64,000 nt of DNA from Spizellomyces punctatus DAOM BR117 (taxonomy: Eukaryota), in assembly GCA_000182565.2 (NCBI GenBank), contig KQ257463.1. The stretch is one strand, 5' to 3'. The stretch's first letter is position 1. Each line of letters begins with the position of its first letter. The notes under the pieces were generated by a model. It made no database searches, had not been told where the DNA came from, and saw only the letters and a list, made by a program, of their open reading frames with translations. Positions 52,376 through 60,062 of this stretch are shown piece after piece. A program made the translations under genes and the position numbers.

Positions 52376-54213
52376 TTATGAAGCAGCAACCCACTGCAAA
52401 ACACCAATCACACCCCCCAATCCAATCGGTACAATCGGTGGCCACTTCCAAAATCCAACCGTCACAAACGTCAATCCCACCACTGCCACATAATACGGGT
52501 ACGCACCAACAGCCGCTCCACTCGGTTTATTCGAGATGGCTTTTTGCCAGAGGATCCATGTCCCTGTGTATACCAACCCCACTGCTCCGGCTGTCACGCC
52601 GTCCAAGATCACACGGACAATGCGACGTTCGCGGAGAGTGTTCCAGATGGGGAGGAGACCGACCATGAGGAGCATGCCGGGTAGGAAGATGCCCGCCCAA
52701 GCGAGCAGGGCGCCGAGGATGGAAGATTCTTTTCGATAGGCAAGAACTCCAACGTATACTAGAGCGAGTGTCATCATTTGTGTTGGTTAAGAACACACAC
52801 AAAATTGTACTTGCCAGAAAAATTAAATAAGGGCCCAGGTAGTGCATTGATCAGTGCGAACCCGAGAAGAAACTCTTGATTTGTGAGCCATCCTGGCGCG
52901 ACAACCCAAGTCTGCAAGAGAGGAACAAGGACAGCTCTATCCTATTGATGAGCGCCCATCTTGAATTGTTACTCTTTAGAATGCAATACTCACCCTCCTC
53001 CAAACGTGATGGCACCTAAAGAATTGAGATGCATGTTATCATGCGTGGCGCTCACATGCAGCAGGAAATGGGTATTATGCAATCATACCGACAAGGTAGA
53101 ACGTGAAGAAAATATCTAAAGCTCTTGGTAGCCGCGGTACGGACCTGACACCGATAGATACAATTAAAATGGCGCCCCACACCAATAGCACCACAATACC
53201 TATTCGAGGTGTGTAGGTAAGAGTTAGTGGGGCGGGCTCCGGTTCGGGTTCTGGTAGCGTGTTGGGTACTGCGGTGGGGACGCGGCGGCGGGATACGGTA
53301 GATATTGTGTCCTCTCGAGTGGAAGGGACGATGGTGATGGAGGAGTGAATAGGCGCAATTGTGGTGTGCTCCTCTTGATTGTTGGACGGTACATCCGCCA
53401 TCGCGATCTCCCCTTCGGAGGTACATATCTCTGAGTGCACTGAGCCATTGTCTTCAACGGCAGGATCATCTCCCTTCAAGCCCCGTCGTCTCTTCACTTC
53501 CTCCCACCGCTGTGCACCATAATCCACCCAATCTTGCCCCCAATACTCAAAGAAAACAGTCAACAGCCCCCCTGCTACCATCGTAACTGGAAGGACAAAC
53601 GGCTTGCTCGAACAGATTGACGCGATCGCACTTGCCAAACAAATAAACCGTTGGAGTTCGGTTCGTATGATTTTGGTCGATAGTCTGTAGGCTGCTAGGG
53701 CAATGAGACCGACTGCAGCTGATACGAGACCGTTTTGGAGGGAGGAGAGCCAGAGTGGAAGGGTTGCACCTGCTTTGGCGATGCTGCTGGCGCCAAAGAA
53801 GAGGATGATGGCTGCCGGTGTTCTGTACATGACGTGATTTAGCAAGCGGGAAAGGCGTATGCAACAATCAAGTAAGAACCTACGACCAAACAAAGAAAGA
53901 AACAACAGCAGGAAAGATGCCACTTCGTATCAACGCAATTGCAAAACTCATTTGAGCAGATCCCGGCCCCGGCAATCCTATACACAACCAGATTAAACGT
54001 TGCCAAAACTCTCTACATCCTTTGAAGGCAACCCTCACCCTGACAAATCCCAAACAACTCTGCAAAAACCGAATCCGATAGCCATTTTCTCCTTACAACG
54101 AATATTTCATGGTACAAGGCGATGGCAGCGTTGGGTCCACCAAATGTAATGTATCCCAATGGCGTGTAAATCTTGACGATTTCCCATAGTTTTTTCAGAA
54201 TGGCCGACACCAT
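52376..54213 (-). CDS. Chromate ion transporter (CHR/ChrA family, two-domain)
   Basis: LGYITFGGPNAAIALYHEIFVVRRKWLSDSVFAELFGICQ|GLPGPGSAQ; second domain AITFGG, WLTNQEFLLGFALINALPGP, GIFLPG, GVTAGAVGLV. Confidence 0.93.
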
Positions 54214-56048: not shown

Positions 56049-56496
56049 TAGAAACGCGGCTCAGAGACGACCGCAGGCGGATCTAAGACAGCGGCTTCAA
56101 CCTCCGCCCCGAAGACGGGTTTATGAATAGCTTTCTGTTGAGATCACGCAGCGGAGAGAAAAAAAAAAGAGGGAAAGCAGGAGACACGCAGAAAGAGAGT
56201 CCCCGATGTGGGGATGAATCAATGTATAAAGTCTAATATAGGGAACCACGCATCTACCACTGAGACCCATTCTATTCTACCGCTGACTTACATATATCCA
56301 TCCCGCAAACGTCAGTCGAGGAGCCGAAGATCGATCCTGGCACCAGTAGTTTCTGACTTAGAGATCACTGTAGTCAAACTCTTGAGTCGCGCAGGAGAGG
56401 TCAAGGCTGCCAAGATGATCCAAAATTGAACAGATTTCTGCAATCTCCAAATGCCCCATGCCATCGTTCAGCAAAGTCTTGCTTGTTTATAAGCTC

Positions 56497-57719
56497 TCAT
56501 CTTCGTCTCTTGGCGGTCTCTCTAGGAATGACACTGGGCAACGGTTTCTTATCAGGTAACACCATTTCCGTCCTTGCCTTGGGATCCATAAACAGCGTCT
56601 CCTTGCTATAATACTCGAGTGGTAAATTCCCATCTGCTAAATGCGGGTTCATGACCAAAAACTGCTTAAACTCTTCCGGAGGTGGCTTCATGCTCCGTAT
56701 CCCATAATTCACAAGTTGAATCCAAAAATAAGTCAATGTCAAATGAAATGTCTTTCCGTTCGTTCTCGGACTGTGTTTGATAAAGTGTTCAATCTTGTCA
56801 AAAATTAGATTCTTGCCTTTTTGTCGTCCTTCGCGGGTGAGATAGAGATAGGCAATGCGGAGATGTGTGTAATGGTCCCAGGTATCGAGGGTGCACGCGT
56901 CGAGTTGGCTGAGAAAGACGTCGTCGGGATCATCTTGCCGTAGGAGCCATTCTTCGAGTTTGGTTGAGAGGGAAGTAGTAGAAGAGGGATTGGGTGGTTG
57001 TGAGACACTTGGTGCCTGTGGGGTGACGATCTGCTCTGTGAGCCATTCGAAGGCTTCCGGTAGCCCTGTTTGGCTCAGGTGGGGTTCAAGGGCCCGGGAA
57101 GGGTATACTGCAAAGGCCCTGTTGCCTACTGTCGGAGCAAATTTCTCTCGAATCTCCAAAGTGCCCATGGCATTCGGCAAATCCTGCTTGTTTGCAATGC
57201 TATTTAACTAATGTCAATCAATTGTTTTAGAGAGGCAAGTAGCATTTTGCGGCACGCACACAATGACAGGGATGCGCTGATCACCAACGTCCGACAGAGC
57301 CGCAATCTCTGTTAGCATGGCCCTAAATTCTTCTACGGCTTCCGGAAACCGTTCGCGATCATTCGAGTCGACAATGTACATCAAACCCGACAGGCCCGAA
57401 AAGTAGTGTCGCCAGAGGGGTCGAATCTTGTCGCATCCGCCCACATCCCATAACGAGACGCTGACCGTACCCGCCCGTGTCTTTATGCTCGTCTTTTCGA
57501 CATTGAAACCAATTGTGGGGATGGTTGTGATAATCTGCACAGCATTGTCAGCAACGATTCCCCTTGTGCACTCTGCGCGGCTAGCACCACCTCGGTAGGG
57601 TCCAACACCAAGCGATACAGAATAGTTGTCTTTCCACAAGCGTCAAGTCCCAGAATAAGCAGTGTTCGGTCGGCGCGTGCAGGCAGCCATTTGCCAAAGA
57701 GAGTCCGGAGGGTTTCCAT
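56497..57719 (-). CDS. Atypical Arf-like GTPase fused to an uncharacterised C-terminal domain, three exons
   Basis: [66 protein letters not shown]; then [14 protein letters not shown]...[13 protein letters not shown]...YYSKETL...AR...VLPDKKPLP. Confidence 0.9.
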
Positions 57720-57810
57720 AAAATAAAAAAACCTCAAAGTAACGTCAGATGGAAATGCCTGGACGGAAAAGCTCAAAAAAGTCGGACGAAAGTCTTGTCC
57801 GTTCGCGACT

Positions 57811-57840
57811 GTCACGTGACTGCGCAGTAAGACGCGTCCC
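57811..57840. promoter_or_regulatory. Putative bHLH E-box (perfect palindrome GTCACGTGAC) with an adjacent ACGCGT (MCB-like) site in the Arf-like/DGAT1 divergent promoter
   Basis: Motifs read directly; a similar pair recurs at 30003/30031 and 40538/40553. Function is inferred. Confidence 0.45.
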
Positions 57841-57958
57841 TGGCCGTGGCTTATCTCCACGTCATCCGTCGATCCCCTCCTTTTGACCCTCTTCGTCCCC
57901 GCCTTGTCCGCCATCTTGCAGCAGCAGCAAGCTTATCCAAACTAACACGGCTTTCACA

Positions 57959-60062
57959 ATGATGGCTACAGTGCTATTAGAGACTACTCCGGAAAACCCC
58001 GCCGTCGAGGCGTGCGTAGAGGAGATGAAAACACATAACTCGCCGCGTCGACGAACTGTTGGTGGGCAAGCCAAGGAGGAGAAGAGGGAAGCTTCCCCAC
58101 ACGGTCAAGGCTCTCCAAAGAGACAGGCAAAGCTGTCAACATATTCCCATACATATGTTGTCCATACAGCGATTCGGGCGTCTCCTCTTTCCAAGGAGGT
58201 GAGTCCTTGTGTGATATTAGCATTATCTCTGGTTAGGTGCTGACAGGGTTCTGTAGAGTCCTGAACAAGACTATAGAGGATTCCTCAACTTAGCACTCCT
58301 TCTTCTTGCCGTCTCCAACATCCGTCTCATTATTGAAAATTACATGAAATACGGGTTCCTCCTCTCGCATCCATTCTCCAACCTCCGACTCTCGGACGTC
58401 CAATGGGCTTGCGTTAGCTGGGCTTTTCAGGGGGTAAGCTCTTTCTACTGCTTGCTTCCAACATTATGATTCTGACATGTATGTTAGATGAACGTTTTGG
58501 CCGCATATGCGACGGAGAAATGGGCGACGAGGGATATCCGGACGGACCGCCCTACACGCAAAATGGTCCGGTTGATTTATTTTATCAATATTGGACTCAC
58601 CATTACGATTCCTACGTTGATCGCGTATACAATATGGAATCCGGTGCGTGCTTCTTCTTATTATTCATTTTCCTGCATCTTTCATAACATTTGGACTTAG
58701 GCAATATCAGCTCTCAGTCTCTTCTCCGCGGCCATTCTTATGCTAAAACTCATATCTTATGGCCTTGTTTGTGGCGATATGCGCCGTGAAGCAGCCTGGA
58801 AAATTGTACCACATCGATGCGAGGATCTCACATCCAAGGATGCCAGGCTCAACACGGCGGAATTCGACATCAATATGACCTATCCGTTGAACATTACGCT
58901 AGGAAATTTGCTGTACTTTGTGTTTTGTCCAACTTTGGTAAGTGGCTGATGTACAGCTTTGTGGTTTAGGTTGACAAGCCTGATGTTTAACTTATGGCGC
59001 ATAGTGCTATCAACCCGTATACCCGCGCACACCTCGGTTCCGCAGTATTTTCTTTTTTAAACGCTTGATGGAGTTCTCAATCGGGATGGCCGCAATATAT
59101 CTGCTTGGAGTTCAATATGCAGGTACAAACACTTGAGCTACTGTTGCAAGGTCTTGACAGCAGGGGTTTCGGGGATGTACACAGCTCACCCATATTAAAT
59201 GCGCAGCTCCCACACTTCGCAACTCCCTACAAGCCCTTGACAAACTAGATTTCGTTCATCTCGTCGAGCGCGTTCTCAAACTGTCAGTCATCAGCGTCGT
59301 AATCTGGTTATTGATGTTTTATTGCTTTTTCCACTGTGCTTTGAATATGCTTGCGGTAGGTTGCTCTTTTGGCGCGTTGCTGTGAATCCTTTATTTATTG
59401 GCTCTGTAGGAAGTTATGCGGTTTGGTGATCGACGATTCTACCTTACGGTACGTACGCGGTTTCTCTCCTCAAAATATCCATTGTTCACTCACCTAAGCA
59501 CACCGTCATAGTGGTGGAACGCACGAGACATTGCCGAATACTGGCGACTCTGGAACACCCCAGTCCACAACTGGGGTAAACGGCATATATACATGCCTCT
59601 CATTATCAAACACAAGGTTCCCCCCATGGTGGCCAGTATCGCCGTTTTTACCTTTTCCGCTATTTTGCATGAGTTGTTGATTGGTGTTCCAACGCGTTGT
59701 GTGAATGGATGGGCGTTTTGGGGGATGATGATTCAGCTGCCTTTGATACTCCAAACGAGGGCGTTTGAACCCCTACGTAGGCGGAACGAAAAGCTGTTTG
59801 ATACCATCGGGAATTATATGTTTTGGATATCTTTTACCATAGGTTTGTTCATCTTTTTTATTCATTGCTGGTGATGAATGTACTAATGAGAGTTGTAGTG
59901 GGACAACCGACATGTGTTCTGGTTTACTACAGTCATTGGTATAAGGTACGCTCATTGGTATTCGTTGCGTTTCTATGCAGGTTGGTTAACCGGTCTTTAG
60001 CGAACGTATCTCTCGTGATGTCACAGAATAGAGGGCTTTATGCGGAGTTTGTAAGAGTATAG
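57959..60062 (+). CDS. DGAT1: Diacylglycerol O-acyltransferase 1 (MBOAT family)
   Basis: H....SPLSKE|SPEQDYRGFLNLALLLLAVSNIRLIIENYMKYG; LKLISY; YPLNIT..NLLYF.FCPTL|CYQ.VYPRT; ERVLKLS; FGDRRFY..WWNA; WNTPVHNW..RHIY.P; SAILHE. Confidence 0.9.

What the first reader, a model, noticed from the sequence alone, without database searches (positions are those of the whole stretch)
56497..57719. Arf-like GTPase with catalytic Gln replaced by Cys, no myristoylation Gly, fused to a His-containing domain of unknown function
Seen: switch II reads [16 protein letters not shown] (Cys codon at 57433-57435) where Arfs have [16 protein letters not shown]. The N-terminus is MET rather than MG, and a roughly 150-aa C-terminal domain ([11 protein letters not shown]...FHLTLTYFW...YYS...AR...PD.KPLP) ends in a basic KRRR tail. 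Established: Arf1 Gln71 is needed for GAP-stimulated hydrolysis and Gly2 for myristoylation. Inference: a hydrolysis-impaired or differently regulated, non-myristoylated GTPase controlling an attached, possibly metal-binding effector or enzyme. I recall similar C-terminal domains as stand-alone bacterial and fungal hypothetical proteins but have not verified this. The gene lies directly beside a retroelement relic.
Basis: partly seen in the sequence, partly recalled or inferred. Interest (0 to 1): 0.78.

Follow-up and report, generated by a model that had tools for sequence, protein, structure and literature searches.

The report
Known Arl17 GTPase, uncharacterised tail domain
This chytrid-fungus gene encodes a member of Arl17, a published but functionally unstudied branch of the Arf switch proteins that has a cysteine where Arfs have their catalytic glutamine and carries a helical tail domain of unknown role that also occurs alone in bacteria.

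Summary
A three-exon gene on the minus strand (57719..56497) encodes a 368-aa protein, 100% identical over the 233 aa searched to an annotated Spizellomyces punctatus protein whose sequence equals my spliced model. It has an Arf-type GTPase domain with WDVGGC (Cys77, codon 57435-57433), starts MET, and carries a ~150-aa C-terminal domain.

The architecture is not new. Vargova et al. 2021 (PMC8358228, passages read) named it Arl17: an Arf1-derived GTPase plus one to three copies of a novel C-terminal domain, also stand-alone in bacteria, function unknown.

- Cys at the Gln71 position is a family hallmark: 117 of 126 aligned homologues, Gln in none. Gly2 occurs in 2 of 107.
- The tail domain folds with high confidence (pLDDT 94.6) into an all-helical domain. 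It has no convincing PDB match and no Pfam or NCBIfam family.
- At least 501 stretches in prokaryote genome contigs encode a ~137-aa stand-alone relative. All 80 loci kept carry names I recognise as Bacteroidota. No neighbour gene is conserved.
- Only His244, Arg249, Thr289, Tyr332 and Pro350-Asp351 are conserved throughout. A three-His metal site is not supported.

Function remains inferred.

The parts
56497..57719 (-). Whole coding region of the Arl17-type gene (3 exons, 368 codons plus stop)
   Evidence: spliced product equals P0004 as printed (100% identity over the 233 aa searched)
57591..57719 (-). Exon 1: residues 1-43, with the N-terminal helix [11 protein letters not shown] (no Gly2) and the P-loop GLDACGKT
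   Evidence: Arf PF00025, E 1.7e-05; helix 2-11
57535..57590 (-). Intron 1 (56 nt, GT..AG)
   Evidence: removing it restores the Arf frame and gives P0004
57260..57534 (-). Exon 2: residues 44-134 plus two bases of codon 135; switch I, interswitch, switch II
   Evidence: Arf PF00025 E 5.4e-23
57433..57435 (-). Cys77 codon (TGC) at the position of Arf1 Gln71
   Evidence: invariant in 47 of 47 and Cys in 117 of 126
57200..57259 (-). Intron 2 (60 nt, GTGCGT..AG, phase 2)
   Evidence: the splice gives PVIVIANKQDL as in P0004
56497..57199 (-). Exon 3: NKQD (G4) and the end of the GTPase domain, the linker and the whole tail domain in one open frame, then the stop
56980..57027 (-). Pro/Ser/Thr-rich linker, residues 193-208
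   Evidence: pLDDT below 50 at residues 198-205 in the full-length model
56536..56979 (-). Tail domain: lead-in helix (residues 209-221, eukaryote-specific) and conserved core (223-356), all-helical
   Evidence: AF2 pLDDT 94.6, pTM 0.88; HMM hit 223-356; 1373 library proteins at E <= 0.001
56857..56874 (-). HYTHLR motif (His244..Arg249), the most widely conserved polar motif of the domain
56500..56511 (-). KRRR C-terminal tail; not conserved in the family
   Evidence: pLDDT below 50 at residues 362-368

Best explanation
The gene is the Spizellomyces punctatus member of Arl17. [quoted passage not shown]

Shown: it keeps the nucleotide-binding motifs (P-loop GxxxxGKT, switch I TIPT, DxxG, NKxD), so it should bind guanine nucleotide. 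Cys at the catalytic-Gln position and the lack of Gly2 are hallmarks of the whole family, not accidents of this gene.

Inferred, at about one in three:
- It acts as a long-lived or non-canonically inactivated GTP switch, because the usual ArfGAP route needs Gln71.
- It reaches membranes or partners through an unmyristoylated, probably N-acetylated, amphipathic N-terminal helix.
- The flexible ~20-aa linker tethers an output module whose conserved His/Arg/Thr/Tyr/Asp residues bind a small, probably anionic, ligand or a partner protein. Access to this module would be set by the nucleotide state of the GTPase domain.
- Near-invariance of Cys, rather than of any non-Gln residue, suggests that the thiol itself is used, in catalysis with a dedicated GAP or in redox or covalent regulation.

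The confidence given (0.8) is for the identity and the family-hallmark statements; the mechanism steps stand at about one in three.
For: Identity:
- The 233 aa searched match the 368-aa annotated protein at 100%, and its printed sequence equals my spliced model.
- Arf PF00025 is found on all three exon pieces: above its 22.3-bit cut-off on exons 1 and 2, below it (18 bits, E 0.002) on exon 3. The nearest solved relatives are Arf1-type proteins (E 1e-42), then Arf6 and Arl1.
- The tail domain recurs in 1373 library proteins at E <= 0.001. Among the 216 I held, 138 also have the GTPase domain. True tandem copies exist, for example P0203 with three.
- The paper's description of Arl17 matches (passages): one to three copies of a novel domain, protists plus certain fungi plus rotifers, stand-alone in bacteria, no HHpred match.
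- My hits include rotifer (Rotaria) and chytrid proteins and a Chromera velia protein.

Hallmarks:
- Cys77 is invariant in 47 of 47. At that column there are 117 Cys, 5 Arg, 2 Gly, 1 Ser, 1 Asp and 0 Gln among 126 residues; 12 further rows are gapped.
- Residue 2 is Gly in 2 of 107 N-complete proteins.

Module:
- AF2 gives pLDDT 94.6 and pTM 0.88, all-helical.
- The first copies keep the full motif set, while later tandem copies lose Asp243, His247 and partly Thr291.

Tether and docking:
- The linker is disordered.
- The ESMFold2 docking test of GTPase domain (with GTP and Mg) against tail domain gave 'weak support': score 0.60, best of 3 controls 0.00, runs agreeing in at least 88% of contacts, partner pLDDT at least 87.
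- Calibration: the mark was reached by 51 of 78 solved complexes and 2 of 108 mismatched pairs. At 0.60 or under it was reached by only 5 of those 78 and by all 4 mismatches that passed (of 180). On eukaryotes, 39 of 65 solved pairs with no like complex among older structures and 2 of 126 unrelated pairs reached it.
Against: - No experiment exists for any Arl17; the paper calls the functions completely unknown.
- The full-length AF2 model has pTM 0.56, so it does not fix the two domains relative to each other. The docking pass is in the weak band, 'more often wrong than right unless the guess was likely beforehand'.
- The fold search gave no informative match: Foldseek best E 1.1; VIA best Z 5.1 over 76 residues, on a saposin-like protein. 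Ligand binding is therefore inferred from residue conservation alone, and I could not inspect coordinates to see whether the conserved residues cluster.
- Bacterial homologues have no conserved gene neighbour (best family in 10 of 79 loci), so context gives no function.
- Five homologues, including the rotifer representative P0088, have Arg instead of Cys, so the thiol is not indispensable.
- I could not confirm that this gene is listed in the paper. 'Spizellomyces' does not occur in the main text and the supplements are closed.
- RNA reads were too few to confirm the splice sites or the start codon. An in-frame ATG lies 195 nt upstream.
Confidence: 0.8

Rival explanations
1. The tail domain is an enzyme, a new His-based or metal-dependent catalytic fold switched on or off in cis by the GTPase.
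For: Invariant or nearly invariant polar residues (His244, Arg249, Thr289, Tyr332, Asp351) are shared from Bacteroidota to fungi. Later tandem copies lose part of the motif set while first copies keep it, as is common when one copy is active and the others are degenerate. Bacterial genes sit among small accessory enzymes such as isochorismatase, GNAT and beta-lactamase-like proteins, but in few loci (4-6 of 79).
Against: The three His are not jointly conserved: His247 is lost in later copies and His287 is Asn in 53% of the bacterial domains. There is no fold or sequence match to any enzyme. Arrays of one to four copies are more typical of binding modules.
Confidence: 0.2
2. The tail domain is an in-cis regulator of the GTPase (built-in GAP, GDI-like lock or dimerisation device) rather than its output. 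It would compensate for the missing Gln by supplying a catalytic residue in trans.
For: Near-universal loss of Gln co-occurs with the fusion. The docking test gave weak support: 0.60 against a best control of 0.00; the mark was reached by 51 of 78 solved complexes and 2 of 108 mismatches, but at 0.60 or under by only 5 of those 78 and by all 4 mismatches that passed of 180. There is precedent for a catalytic residue differing or coming from elsewhere: Sar GTPases conserve His at the Gln71 position (PMC3012027, passage).
Against: The domain exists alone in at least 501 stretches of prokaryote genome contigs without any adjacent GTPase among the conserved neighbours, so it has a GTPase-independent function. 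AF2 full-length pTM is 0.56.
Confidence: 0.2
3. The GTPase domain no longer switches. It is a permanently GTP-bound, or nucleotide-independent, scaffold, and Cys merely marks loss of hydrolysis.
For: Gln is absent in all 126 aligned residues. Within the family the P-loop Lys is Arg in 20 rows against Lys in 92, and NKxD is TKxD in 32 rows against 88, which suggests relaxed constraint in some paralogues.
Against: If only loss of Gln mattered, many residues would serve, yet 117 of 126 are Cys. The window protein keeps GKT, TIPT, DVGG and NKQD intact. The switch II sequence [10 protein letters not shown] is identical to that of the solved Arf in the alignment, which argues for continued selection on the switch.
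Confidence: 0.15
4. Annotation artefact: two separate genes (an Arf and a small helical protein) wrongly merged.
For: RNA reads were too sparse to show a single transcript. Gene-model chimeras do occur in this family, for example P0115, which joins Arl17 to Rad50 domains.
Against: The G4 motif, the end of the GTPase domain, the linker and the whole tail domain lie in one exon without a stop. The same fusion is seen in 138 of the 216 proteins held, whose named members include fungi and rotifers, an amoebozoan and Pigoraptor.
Confidence: 0.02

Closest known systems
Arl17 (Vargova et al. 2021, Genome Biol Evol, PMC8358228; passages read)
   Same: An Arf1-related GTPase domain followed by a novel conserved C-terminal domain with no detectable homology. 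It is found in certain fungi, protists and rotifers, and the domain is also stand-alone in bacteria. Function is unknown. My homologue set contains rotifer proteins and a Chromera velia protein, taxa the paper names for Arl17.
   Different: No difference in kind. The paper gives the domain as about 100 residues, whereas my model and HMM give about 135 core residues plus a lead-in helix. The main text does not mention the Cys-for-Gln replacement: terms 'switch II', 'catalytic glutamine', 'Q71' and 'Gln71' gave 0 occurrences. No Arl17-specific Gly2 statement was shown in the passages I read (fig. 7G tabulates Gly2 by subgroup, values not seen). It says Arl17 is missing from Stramenopiles, but hits here carry Mucochytrium and Heterosigma transcriptome labels. 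Its supplements may cover any of these points; I could not see them.
Arf1 (solved structures such as 6pta_A, 3lrp_A, 1hur_A)
   Same: Best sequence match (E 1e-42 to 4e-41). The P-loop, switch I and NKQD are shared, and switch II is nearly identical ([10 protein letters not shown]). There is an N-terminal helix.
   Different: Cys replaces Gln71. There is no Gly2, so no N-myristoylation. There is a 2-aa insertion before switch I and a 4-aa insertion in the interswitch hairpin. The G5 region TCAT is replaced by PSRAL. It also carries the extra 175-aa linker plus domain.
Sar1 (Sar GTPases)
   Same: An ARF-family member that lacks the catalytic Gln and is not myristoylated. It conserves another residue (His) at that position (PMC3012027, passage).
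   Different: His rather than Cys. It is a single-domain protein that works with the Sec23 GAP (recalled, not from a call). Arl17 is closer to Arf1 than to Sar1.
Other multidomain ARF proteins (TRIM23 and lineage-specific fusions listed in PMC8358228, section 13)
   Same: An ARF-family GTPase covalently joined to another functional domain, thought to regulate it in cis.
   Different: Those partners are known domains (RING/B-box, BTB, F-box, PH, VPS9, 2OG-oxygenase). Here the partner has no known family or fold.

Membership tests
Arl17 (PMC8358228) | ARF-family GTPase domain, most similar to Arf1 | tested here: met
   Pfam PF00025 on the exon pieces (E 5.4e-23 and 1.7e-05 above the cut-off; E 0.002, 18 bits, below it). 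Best PDB sequence matches are Arf1-type proteins at E 1e-42, ahead of Arf6 and Arl1.
Arl17 (PMC8358228) | [quoted passage not shown] | tested here: met
   One copy, residues about 209-356. The same domain is found in 138 GTPase-bearing proteins among the 216 held, some with two to three clear tandem copies (P0203, P0128, P0085).
Arl17 (PMC8358228) | The C-terminal domain has no discernible homology to described domains | tested here: met
   No Pfam family and no NCBIfam family. The PDB profile search gave only E 1.2. Foldseek best E 1.1 and VIA best Z 5.1. No named Atlas cluster.
Arl17 (PMC8358228) | The domain also occurs as a stand-alone protein in bacteria | tested here: met
   About 137-aa proteins whose source names I recognise as Bacteroidota. 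501 of 519 pattern matches in prokaryote genomes were confirmed by tblastn. The link to the eukaryotic profile is P0303 at E 2.4e-17, with motifs shared in alignment A4.
Arl17 (PMC8358228) | Taxonomic pattern named by the paper (certain fungi, protists, rotifers, Chromera) | tested here: met
   Named homologues are from Agaricales and Didymosphaeria, Chromera velia, and the chytrids Rhizophlyctis and Quaeritorhiza, Rotaria rotifers, Pigoraptor and Pyxidicula.
Arl17 (PMC8358228) | Listed in, or directly alignable to, the paper's own Arl17 sequence set | not testable with these tools
   The supplements are closed. 'Spizellomyces' has 0 occurrences in the main text. The accessions the paper cites could not be fetched.
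Arl17 (PMC8358228) | Placement in an Arl17 clade in a GTPase-domain tree | not tested
   The paper itself reports no statistical support for Arl17 monophyly. No tree was built here.
Canonical Arf (Arf1/Arf6 type) | Gly2 for N-myristoylation | tested here: not met
   The N-terminus is MET. Gly2 occurs in 2 of 107 family members.
Canonical Arf (Arf1/Arf6 type) | Catalytic Gln in switch II (DVGGQ) | tested here: not met
   DVGGC. There is no Gln among 126 aligned residues.
Nucleotide-dead pseudoGTPase | Loss of P-loop Lys/Thr, the switch I Thr, DxxG or NKxD | tested here: not met
   [16 protein letters not shown] and NKQD are all present in the window protein. Binding itself has not been assayed.

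The most novel reading that the evidence does not exclude
The near-invariant switch II cysteine is a working thiol. In one version, Arl17 is an Arf-type switch gated by redox state or covalent modification of Cys77. In another, Cys77 acts together with a dedicated, still unknown GAP. Either way the switch controls a tethered domain with a new fold, inherited from or shared with bacteria, that binds a small anionic ligand. [quoted passage not shown]
Probability: 0.15. Interest if true: 0.8.

Novelty: already known. Interest (0 to 1): 0.4.

Why it matters
Arl17 is one of the few ARF-family paralogues inferred for the last eukaryotic common ancestor for which nothing is known, because it is missing from all common model organisms (PMC8358228).

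If so, this single-copy, one-domain version would be a practical entry point.

The points added here give concrete experiments rather than a new discovery:
- a family-wide Cys at the catalytic position;
- a high-confidence helical fold without a convincing solved relative;
- a small universal residue set (His244, Arg249, Thr289, Tyr332, Pro350-Asp351);
- a large family of stand-alone relatives in genomes with Bacteroidota names.

Tried and rejected
- RNA evidence. No RNA holder was listed. Laying the one raw RNA-seq run of the same species label (X5, about 6 in 100 of it read) gave depth below 2 over the coding region and no joints. It says nothing about splicing, the start codon or a single transcript. 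The X1-X3 contigs behave as genomic DNA; X1 spans intron 2 unspliced.
- First genome-contig scan, with eukaryotic motifs: 20 pattern matches, none confirmed.
- Fold and family searches on the tail domain. Foldseek pdb gave no match at E <= 0.001, best 1.1. VIA wide gave one chain at Z >= 5: caenopore-5, Z 5.1, rmsd 3.4, 76 aligned. A second saposin-like chain scored Z 4.1. Both are below the tool's stated noise level for helical models. NCBIfam gave nothing at E <= 0.1 (one sub-cut-off row at E 0.11 for P0208). The PDB profile search gave only E 1.2. Atlas named clusters gave nothing.
- Bacterial gene neighbourhood, 79 of 80 loci usable. The commonest neighbour family is a Crp-like cNMP-binding protein in 10 loci. 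An isochorismatase and an unnamed 152-aa family occur in 6 loci each, and GNAT in 4. There is no conserved partner.
- Domain associations. Ten long proteins that lacked a full GTPase hit were scanned. Four gave a partial Arf C-terminus above Pfam's cut-off, two a weaker trace below it, and four nothing. These look like truncated Arl17, not new architectures. P0115 (Arf, tail and Rad50 domains) looks like a merged gene model.
- 'Ubiquitinyl hydrolase 1' names on two chytrid homologues: no deubiquitinase domain by Pfam.
- Retroelement relic: five ORFs between 55139 and 56429 gave no Pfam family at E <= 0.1. Not pursued further.
- Whole-genome search for paralogues: no genome is held for this window.
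- Full-length AF2: both domains are confident but pTM is 0.56, so no interdomain geometry can be claimed.
- Literature. Searches for 'Arl17' with 'Arl18', 'C-terminal domain', 'Arf-like', 'fungi' and 'domain of unknown function' returned only the 2021 paper as relevant. The Volvariella small-GTPase paper merely lists nine Arf-family genes. A search for a Cys at the catalytic Gln of an Arf-like protein found only Neuwald 2010, which concerns a different cysteine in Arl8.
- Copy counts. The copy counts are phmmer stretches and overcount: insertions in Agaricales domains split one copy into two. I therefore quote only clear multi-copy examples.
Full report
WHAT IS THERE

The minus strand between 57719 and 56497 carries a three-exon gene:
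- Exon 1 (57719-57591) encodes [43 protein letters not shown].
- A 56-nt GT..AG intron follows.
- Exon 2 (57534-57260) encodes [14 protein letters not shown]...[16 protein letters not shown]...RIPVIV.
- A 60-nt GTGCGT..AG intron follows.
- Exon 3 (57199-56497) runs without a stop from [11 protein letters not shown] through the end of the GTPase domain, a Pro/Ser/Thr linker and the whole tail domain to KRRR-stop.

The three coding parts add up to 1104 bases. The product equals P0004 as printed. P0004 is a 368-aa protein annotated in NCBI as 'small GTP-binding protein domain [Spizellomyces punctatus DAOM BR117]', and it matched the 233 aa I searched with at 100% identity.

THE GTPase DOMAIN

Pfam finds only the Arf family, PF00025 (E 5.4e-23 on exon 2). 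Against solved structures the best matches are Arf1-type proteins (6pta_A at E 1e-42, 3lrp_A at 1.3e-41, many Arf1 entries near 4e-41), then Arf6 (about 1e-37) and Arl1 (about 1e-31).

The printed alignments put Cys77 exactly opposite the Gln of [14 protein letters not shown]. They also show a 2-aa insertion before switch I, a 4-aa insertion in the interswitch hairpin, and PSRAL in place of TCAT in G5. GKT, TIPT, DVGG and NKQD are intact, so nucleotide binding is expected. That is inference; nothing was assayed.

IT IS A PUBLISHED FAMILY

Vargova et al. 2021 (PMC8358228; I read passages found by term searches, not the whole text or the supplements) propose 'Arl17'. They describe it as follows:
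[quoted passage not shown] - The domain has no HHpred-detectable homology and also occurs stand-alone in bacteria.
- It is inferred to derive from an Arf1 duplication before the last eukaryotic common ancestor.
- Its function is 'completely unknown'.

My data reproduce each element:
- The tail domain alone finds 1373 library proteins at E <= 0.001, 405 at <= 1e-10 and 99 at <= 1e-30.
- Of the 216 proteins I held at that point, 138 also have the GTPase domain.
- Clear two- and three-copy arrays exist (P0085, P0128, P0203).
- Named homologues come from many Agaricales and a Didymosphaeria, and from Chromera velia.
- Further named homologues come from the chytrids Rhizophlyctis rosea and Quaeritorhiza haematococci, bdelloid rotifers (Rotaria), Pigoraptor and Pyxidicula.

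I could not verify that this particular gene is in the paper's table. 'Spizellomyces' is absent from the main text and the supplements are closed. Further searches found no later paper on Arl17.

Yes.
- In an alignment of 47 fusion proteins, Cys77 is one of five invariant columns.
- In a local MAFFT alignment of all 138 GTPase-bearing homologues, the column holds Cys 117, Arg 5, Gly 2, Ser 1, Asp 1 and 12 gaps. That is 117 of 126 residues, and none is Gln.
- The five Arg proteins include the rotifer representative P0088.
- Among 107 proteins that start with Met and whose GTPase hit begins near the N-terminus, residue 2 is Gly in 2. It is Ser in 38, Ala in 17, Leu in 14, Thr in 8, and other residues in the rest.
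- The paper's main text does not discuss this: 'switch II', 'catalytic glutamine', 'Q71' and 'Gln71' gave 0 occurrences. Its supplementary alignment may show it.
- Also: the P-loop Lys is Arg in 20 rows against Lys in 92, and NKxD is TKxD in 32 rows against 88. Some paralogues may therefore be less constrained. The window protein has the canonical residues.

THE TAIL DOMAIN

With a 54-sequence alignment, AlphaFold2 gives mean pLDDT 94.6 and pTM 0.88 for residues 210-368. The model is an all-helical domain with one long helix at model residues 35-68.

It has no convincing relative among solved structures:
- Foldseek had no match at E <= 0.001; the best was 1.1.
- The Foldseek-independent VIA search of 48,161 chains gave a single chain at Z >= 5: caenopore-5, a saposin-like protein, Z 5.1, rmsd 3.4 A, 76 aligned. 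Another saposin-like chain scored Z 4.1. Both are below what the tool reports as ordinary for helical models.
- Pfam, NCBIfam, a PDB profile search and named Atlas clusters gave nothing.
- The unnamed Atlas neighbours are bacterial 'hypothetical protein' clusters of 128-163 aa (scores 0.92-0.93).

A divergent metagenome protein (P0303) matched the eukaryotic stand-alone profile at E 2.4e-17. Searching with it led to a large set of ~137-aa proteins, plus ~285-aa two-copy forms. Where a source name is given, it is a taxon I recognise as Bacteroidota: Spirosoma, Maribacter, Aquimarina, Winogradskyella, Fulvivirga, Pontibacter.

A pattern scan of one genome per prokaryote species confirmed 501 of 519 matches. 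The pattern was taken from this subfamily, so it cannot show the full bacterial range.

The bacterial and eukaryotic domains align along their whole length. An HMM-based comparison used 232 first or only eukaryotic copies, 47 later tandem copies and 135 domains from the set, which I took to be bacterial because all source names given there are bacterial. It shows which residues are universal. For first copies, about 26-27% of rows are gapped at the N-terminal columns because they are fragments.

| Residue | Bacterial | Later tandem copies | First or only copies |
|---|---|---|---|
| His244 | 100% | 87% | 71%, plus 27% gaps |
| Arg249 | 88% | 93% | 72%, plus 26% gaps |
| Thr289 | 97% | 93% | 90% |
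| Tyr332 | 99% | 80% | 90% |
| Pro350 | 90% | 87% | 93% |
| Asp351 | 89% | 85% | 89% |
| His247 | 99% | lost (K/F/L) | 62%, plus 27% gaps |
| His287 | Asn 53%, His 46% | 80% | 93% |

Asp243 is Gly, Ser or Asn outside first copies. A conserved three-His metal site is therefore not supported. A conserved polar pocket of unknown use is.

Bacterial gene context is not informative. In 79 loci the commonest neighbour family, a Crp-like cNMP-binding protein, occurs in 10. An isochorismatase and an unnamed family occur in 6 each, and GNAT in 4.

HOW THE TWO HALVES RELATE

- The full-length AF2 model (47 sequences) has mean pLDDT 86.0 but pTM 0.56. It has a disordered linker (pLDDT below 50 at residues 198-205) and a disordered tail (362-368). 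AF2 therefore does not fix the domains relative to each other. It also models an N-terminal helix at residues 2-11.
- The controlled docking test used ESMFold2 without alignments, with GTP and Mg riding along. It returned 'weak support': score 0.60, best of 3 controls 0.00, runs agreeing in at least 88% of contacts, partner pLDDT at least 87.
- Calibration for that test: the mark was reached by 51 of 78 solved complexes and 2 of 108 mismatched pairs. At 0.60 or under it was reached by only 5 of those 78 and by all 4 mismatches that passed (of 180). On eukaryotes, 39 of 65 solved pairs with no like complex among older structures and 2 of 126 unrelated pairs reached it.
- I treat docking in cis as possible, not shown.

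MECHANISM (INFERRED)

ArfGAP-stimulated hydrolysis in canonical Arfs uses Gln71, and N-myristoylation needs Gly2. Sar GTPases conserve His at the Gln71 position (PMC3012027, passage).

Arl17 lacks both features family-wide. It should therefore be a GTP-binding switch that is switched off slowly or by a non-canonical route. It should reach its site of action through an unmyristoylated amphipathic helix, by analogy with N-acetylated Arl proteins (recalled).

That 93% of members keep Cys, rather than any non-Gln residue, argues that the thiol itself matters. The Arg subclade shows it is not indispensable.

The tail domain is most simply read as the output or targeting module. It has its own GTPase-independent function in bacteria. 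It occurs in variable copy number, with first copies complete and later copies degenerate. It carries a conserved His/Arg/Thr/Tyr/Asp set suited to binding an anionic ligand or a partner.

Rival readings are listed with their tests: an enzyme, an in-cis regulator, a dead switch, or a merged gene model.

VERDICT

The architecture, however, was described and named in 2021, so it is not a discovery. The function of an ancient, model-organism-absent Arf paralogue remains open. The additions here are incremental: the quantified Cys and Gly2 hallmarks, a confident fold without a convincing solved relative, a universal residue set, and a large stand-alone family in Bacteroidota-named genomes without operon context.

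Noticed in passing
window 57720-57914 (minus strand): An in-frame ATG at 57914-57912 opens a frame (MADKAGTKRVKRRG...) that runs without a stop into the annotated start at 57719, 65 codons upstream. Homologues start at the position of the annotated Met, so the extension is probably 5' UTR. RNA reads were too sparse to decide.
   Followed up: partly
window 56300-56490: The only appreciable RNA-seq depth in the laid stretch (up to 13.1) lies just 3' of the stop codon and rises toward 56300, while the coding region has depth below 2. This could be a 3'-biased signal of this gene's UTR or a neighbouring transcript.
   Followed up: no
Five ORF translations from this interval have no Pfam family at E <= 0.1.
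   Followed up: partly
window 59512-59874 (+) and 53075-53929 (-): Flanking genes: an MBOAT-family O-acyltransferase exon upstream on the opposite strand (PF03062, E 5.5e-17), and a weak, below-cut-off chromate-transporter match downstream (E 0.0008).
   Followed up: no
P0088, P0177, P0164, P0140, P0197 (homologues, not in the window): A subset of two-copy Arl17 proteins, including the bdelloid-rotifer (Rotaria) representative P0088, has Arg instead of Cys at the Gln71 position (WDVGGRDKIRPL).
   Followed up: partly
GTPase-bearing homologues, alignment: The P-loop Lys is Arg in 20 rows against Lys in 92, and NKxD is TKxD in 32 rows against 88. Many mushroom (Agaricales) genomes carry several paralogues, some on one contig, for example Galerina, Psilocybe cubensis and Mycena rebaudengoi. 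This may be a lineage-specific expansion with relaxed GTPase motifs.
   Followed up: no
P0194, P0203 (chytrid homologues): Two three-copy chytrid Arl17 proteins are named 'ubiquitinyl hydrolase 1' in NCBI, but Pfam finds only the Arf domain in them. The name is probably propagated annotation.
   Followed up: yes
P0090 (Mucochytrium quahogii), P0212 (Heterosigma transcriptome label): Proteins with the tail domain carry stramenopile transcriptome labels, although the paper reports Arl17 as missing from Stramenopiles. Contamination has not been excluded.
   Followed up: no
P0115 (1583 aa): A protein joining the Arl17 GTPase and tail domain to Rad50/SMC domains. It is most likely two neighbouring genes merged by gene prediction.
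   Followed up: no
P0307-P0318, P0314 (Pontibacter sp.): Bacteria also have ~281-304-aa two-copy forms of the domain beside the common ~137-aa single-copy form, so tandem duplication is not confined to eukaryotes.
   Followed up: no
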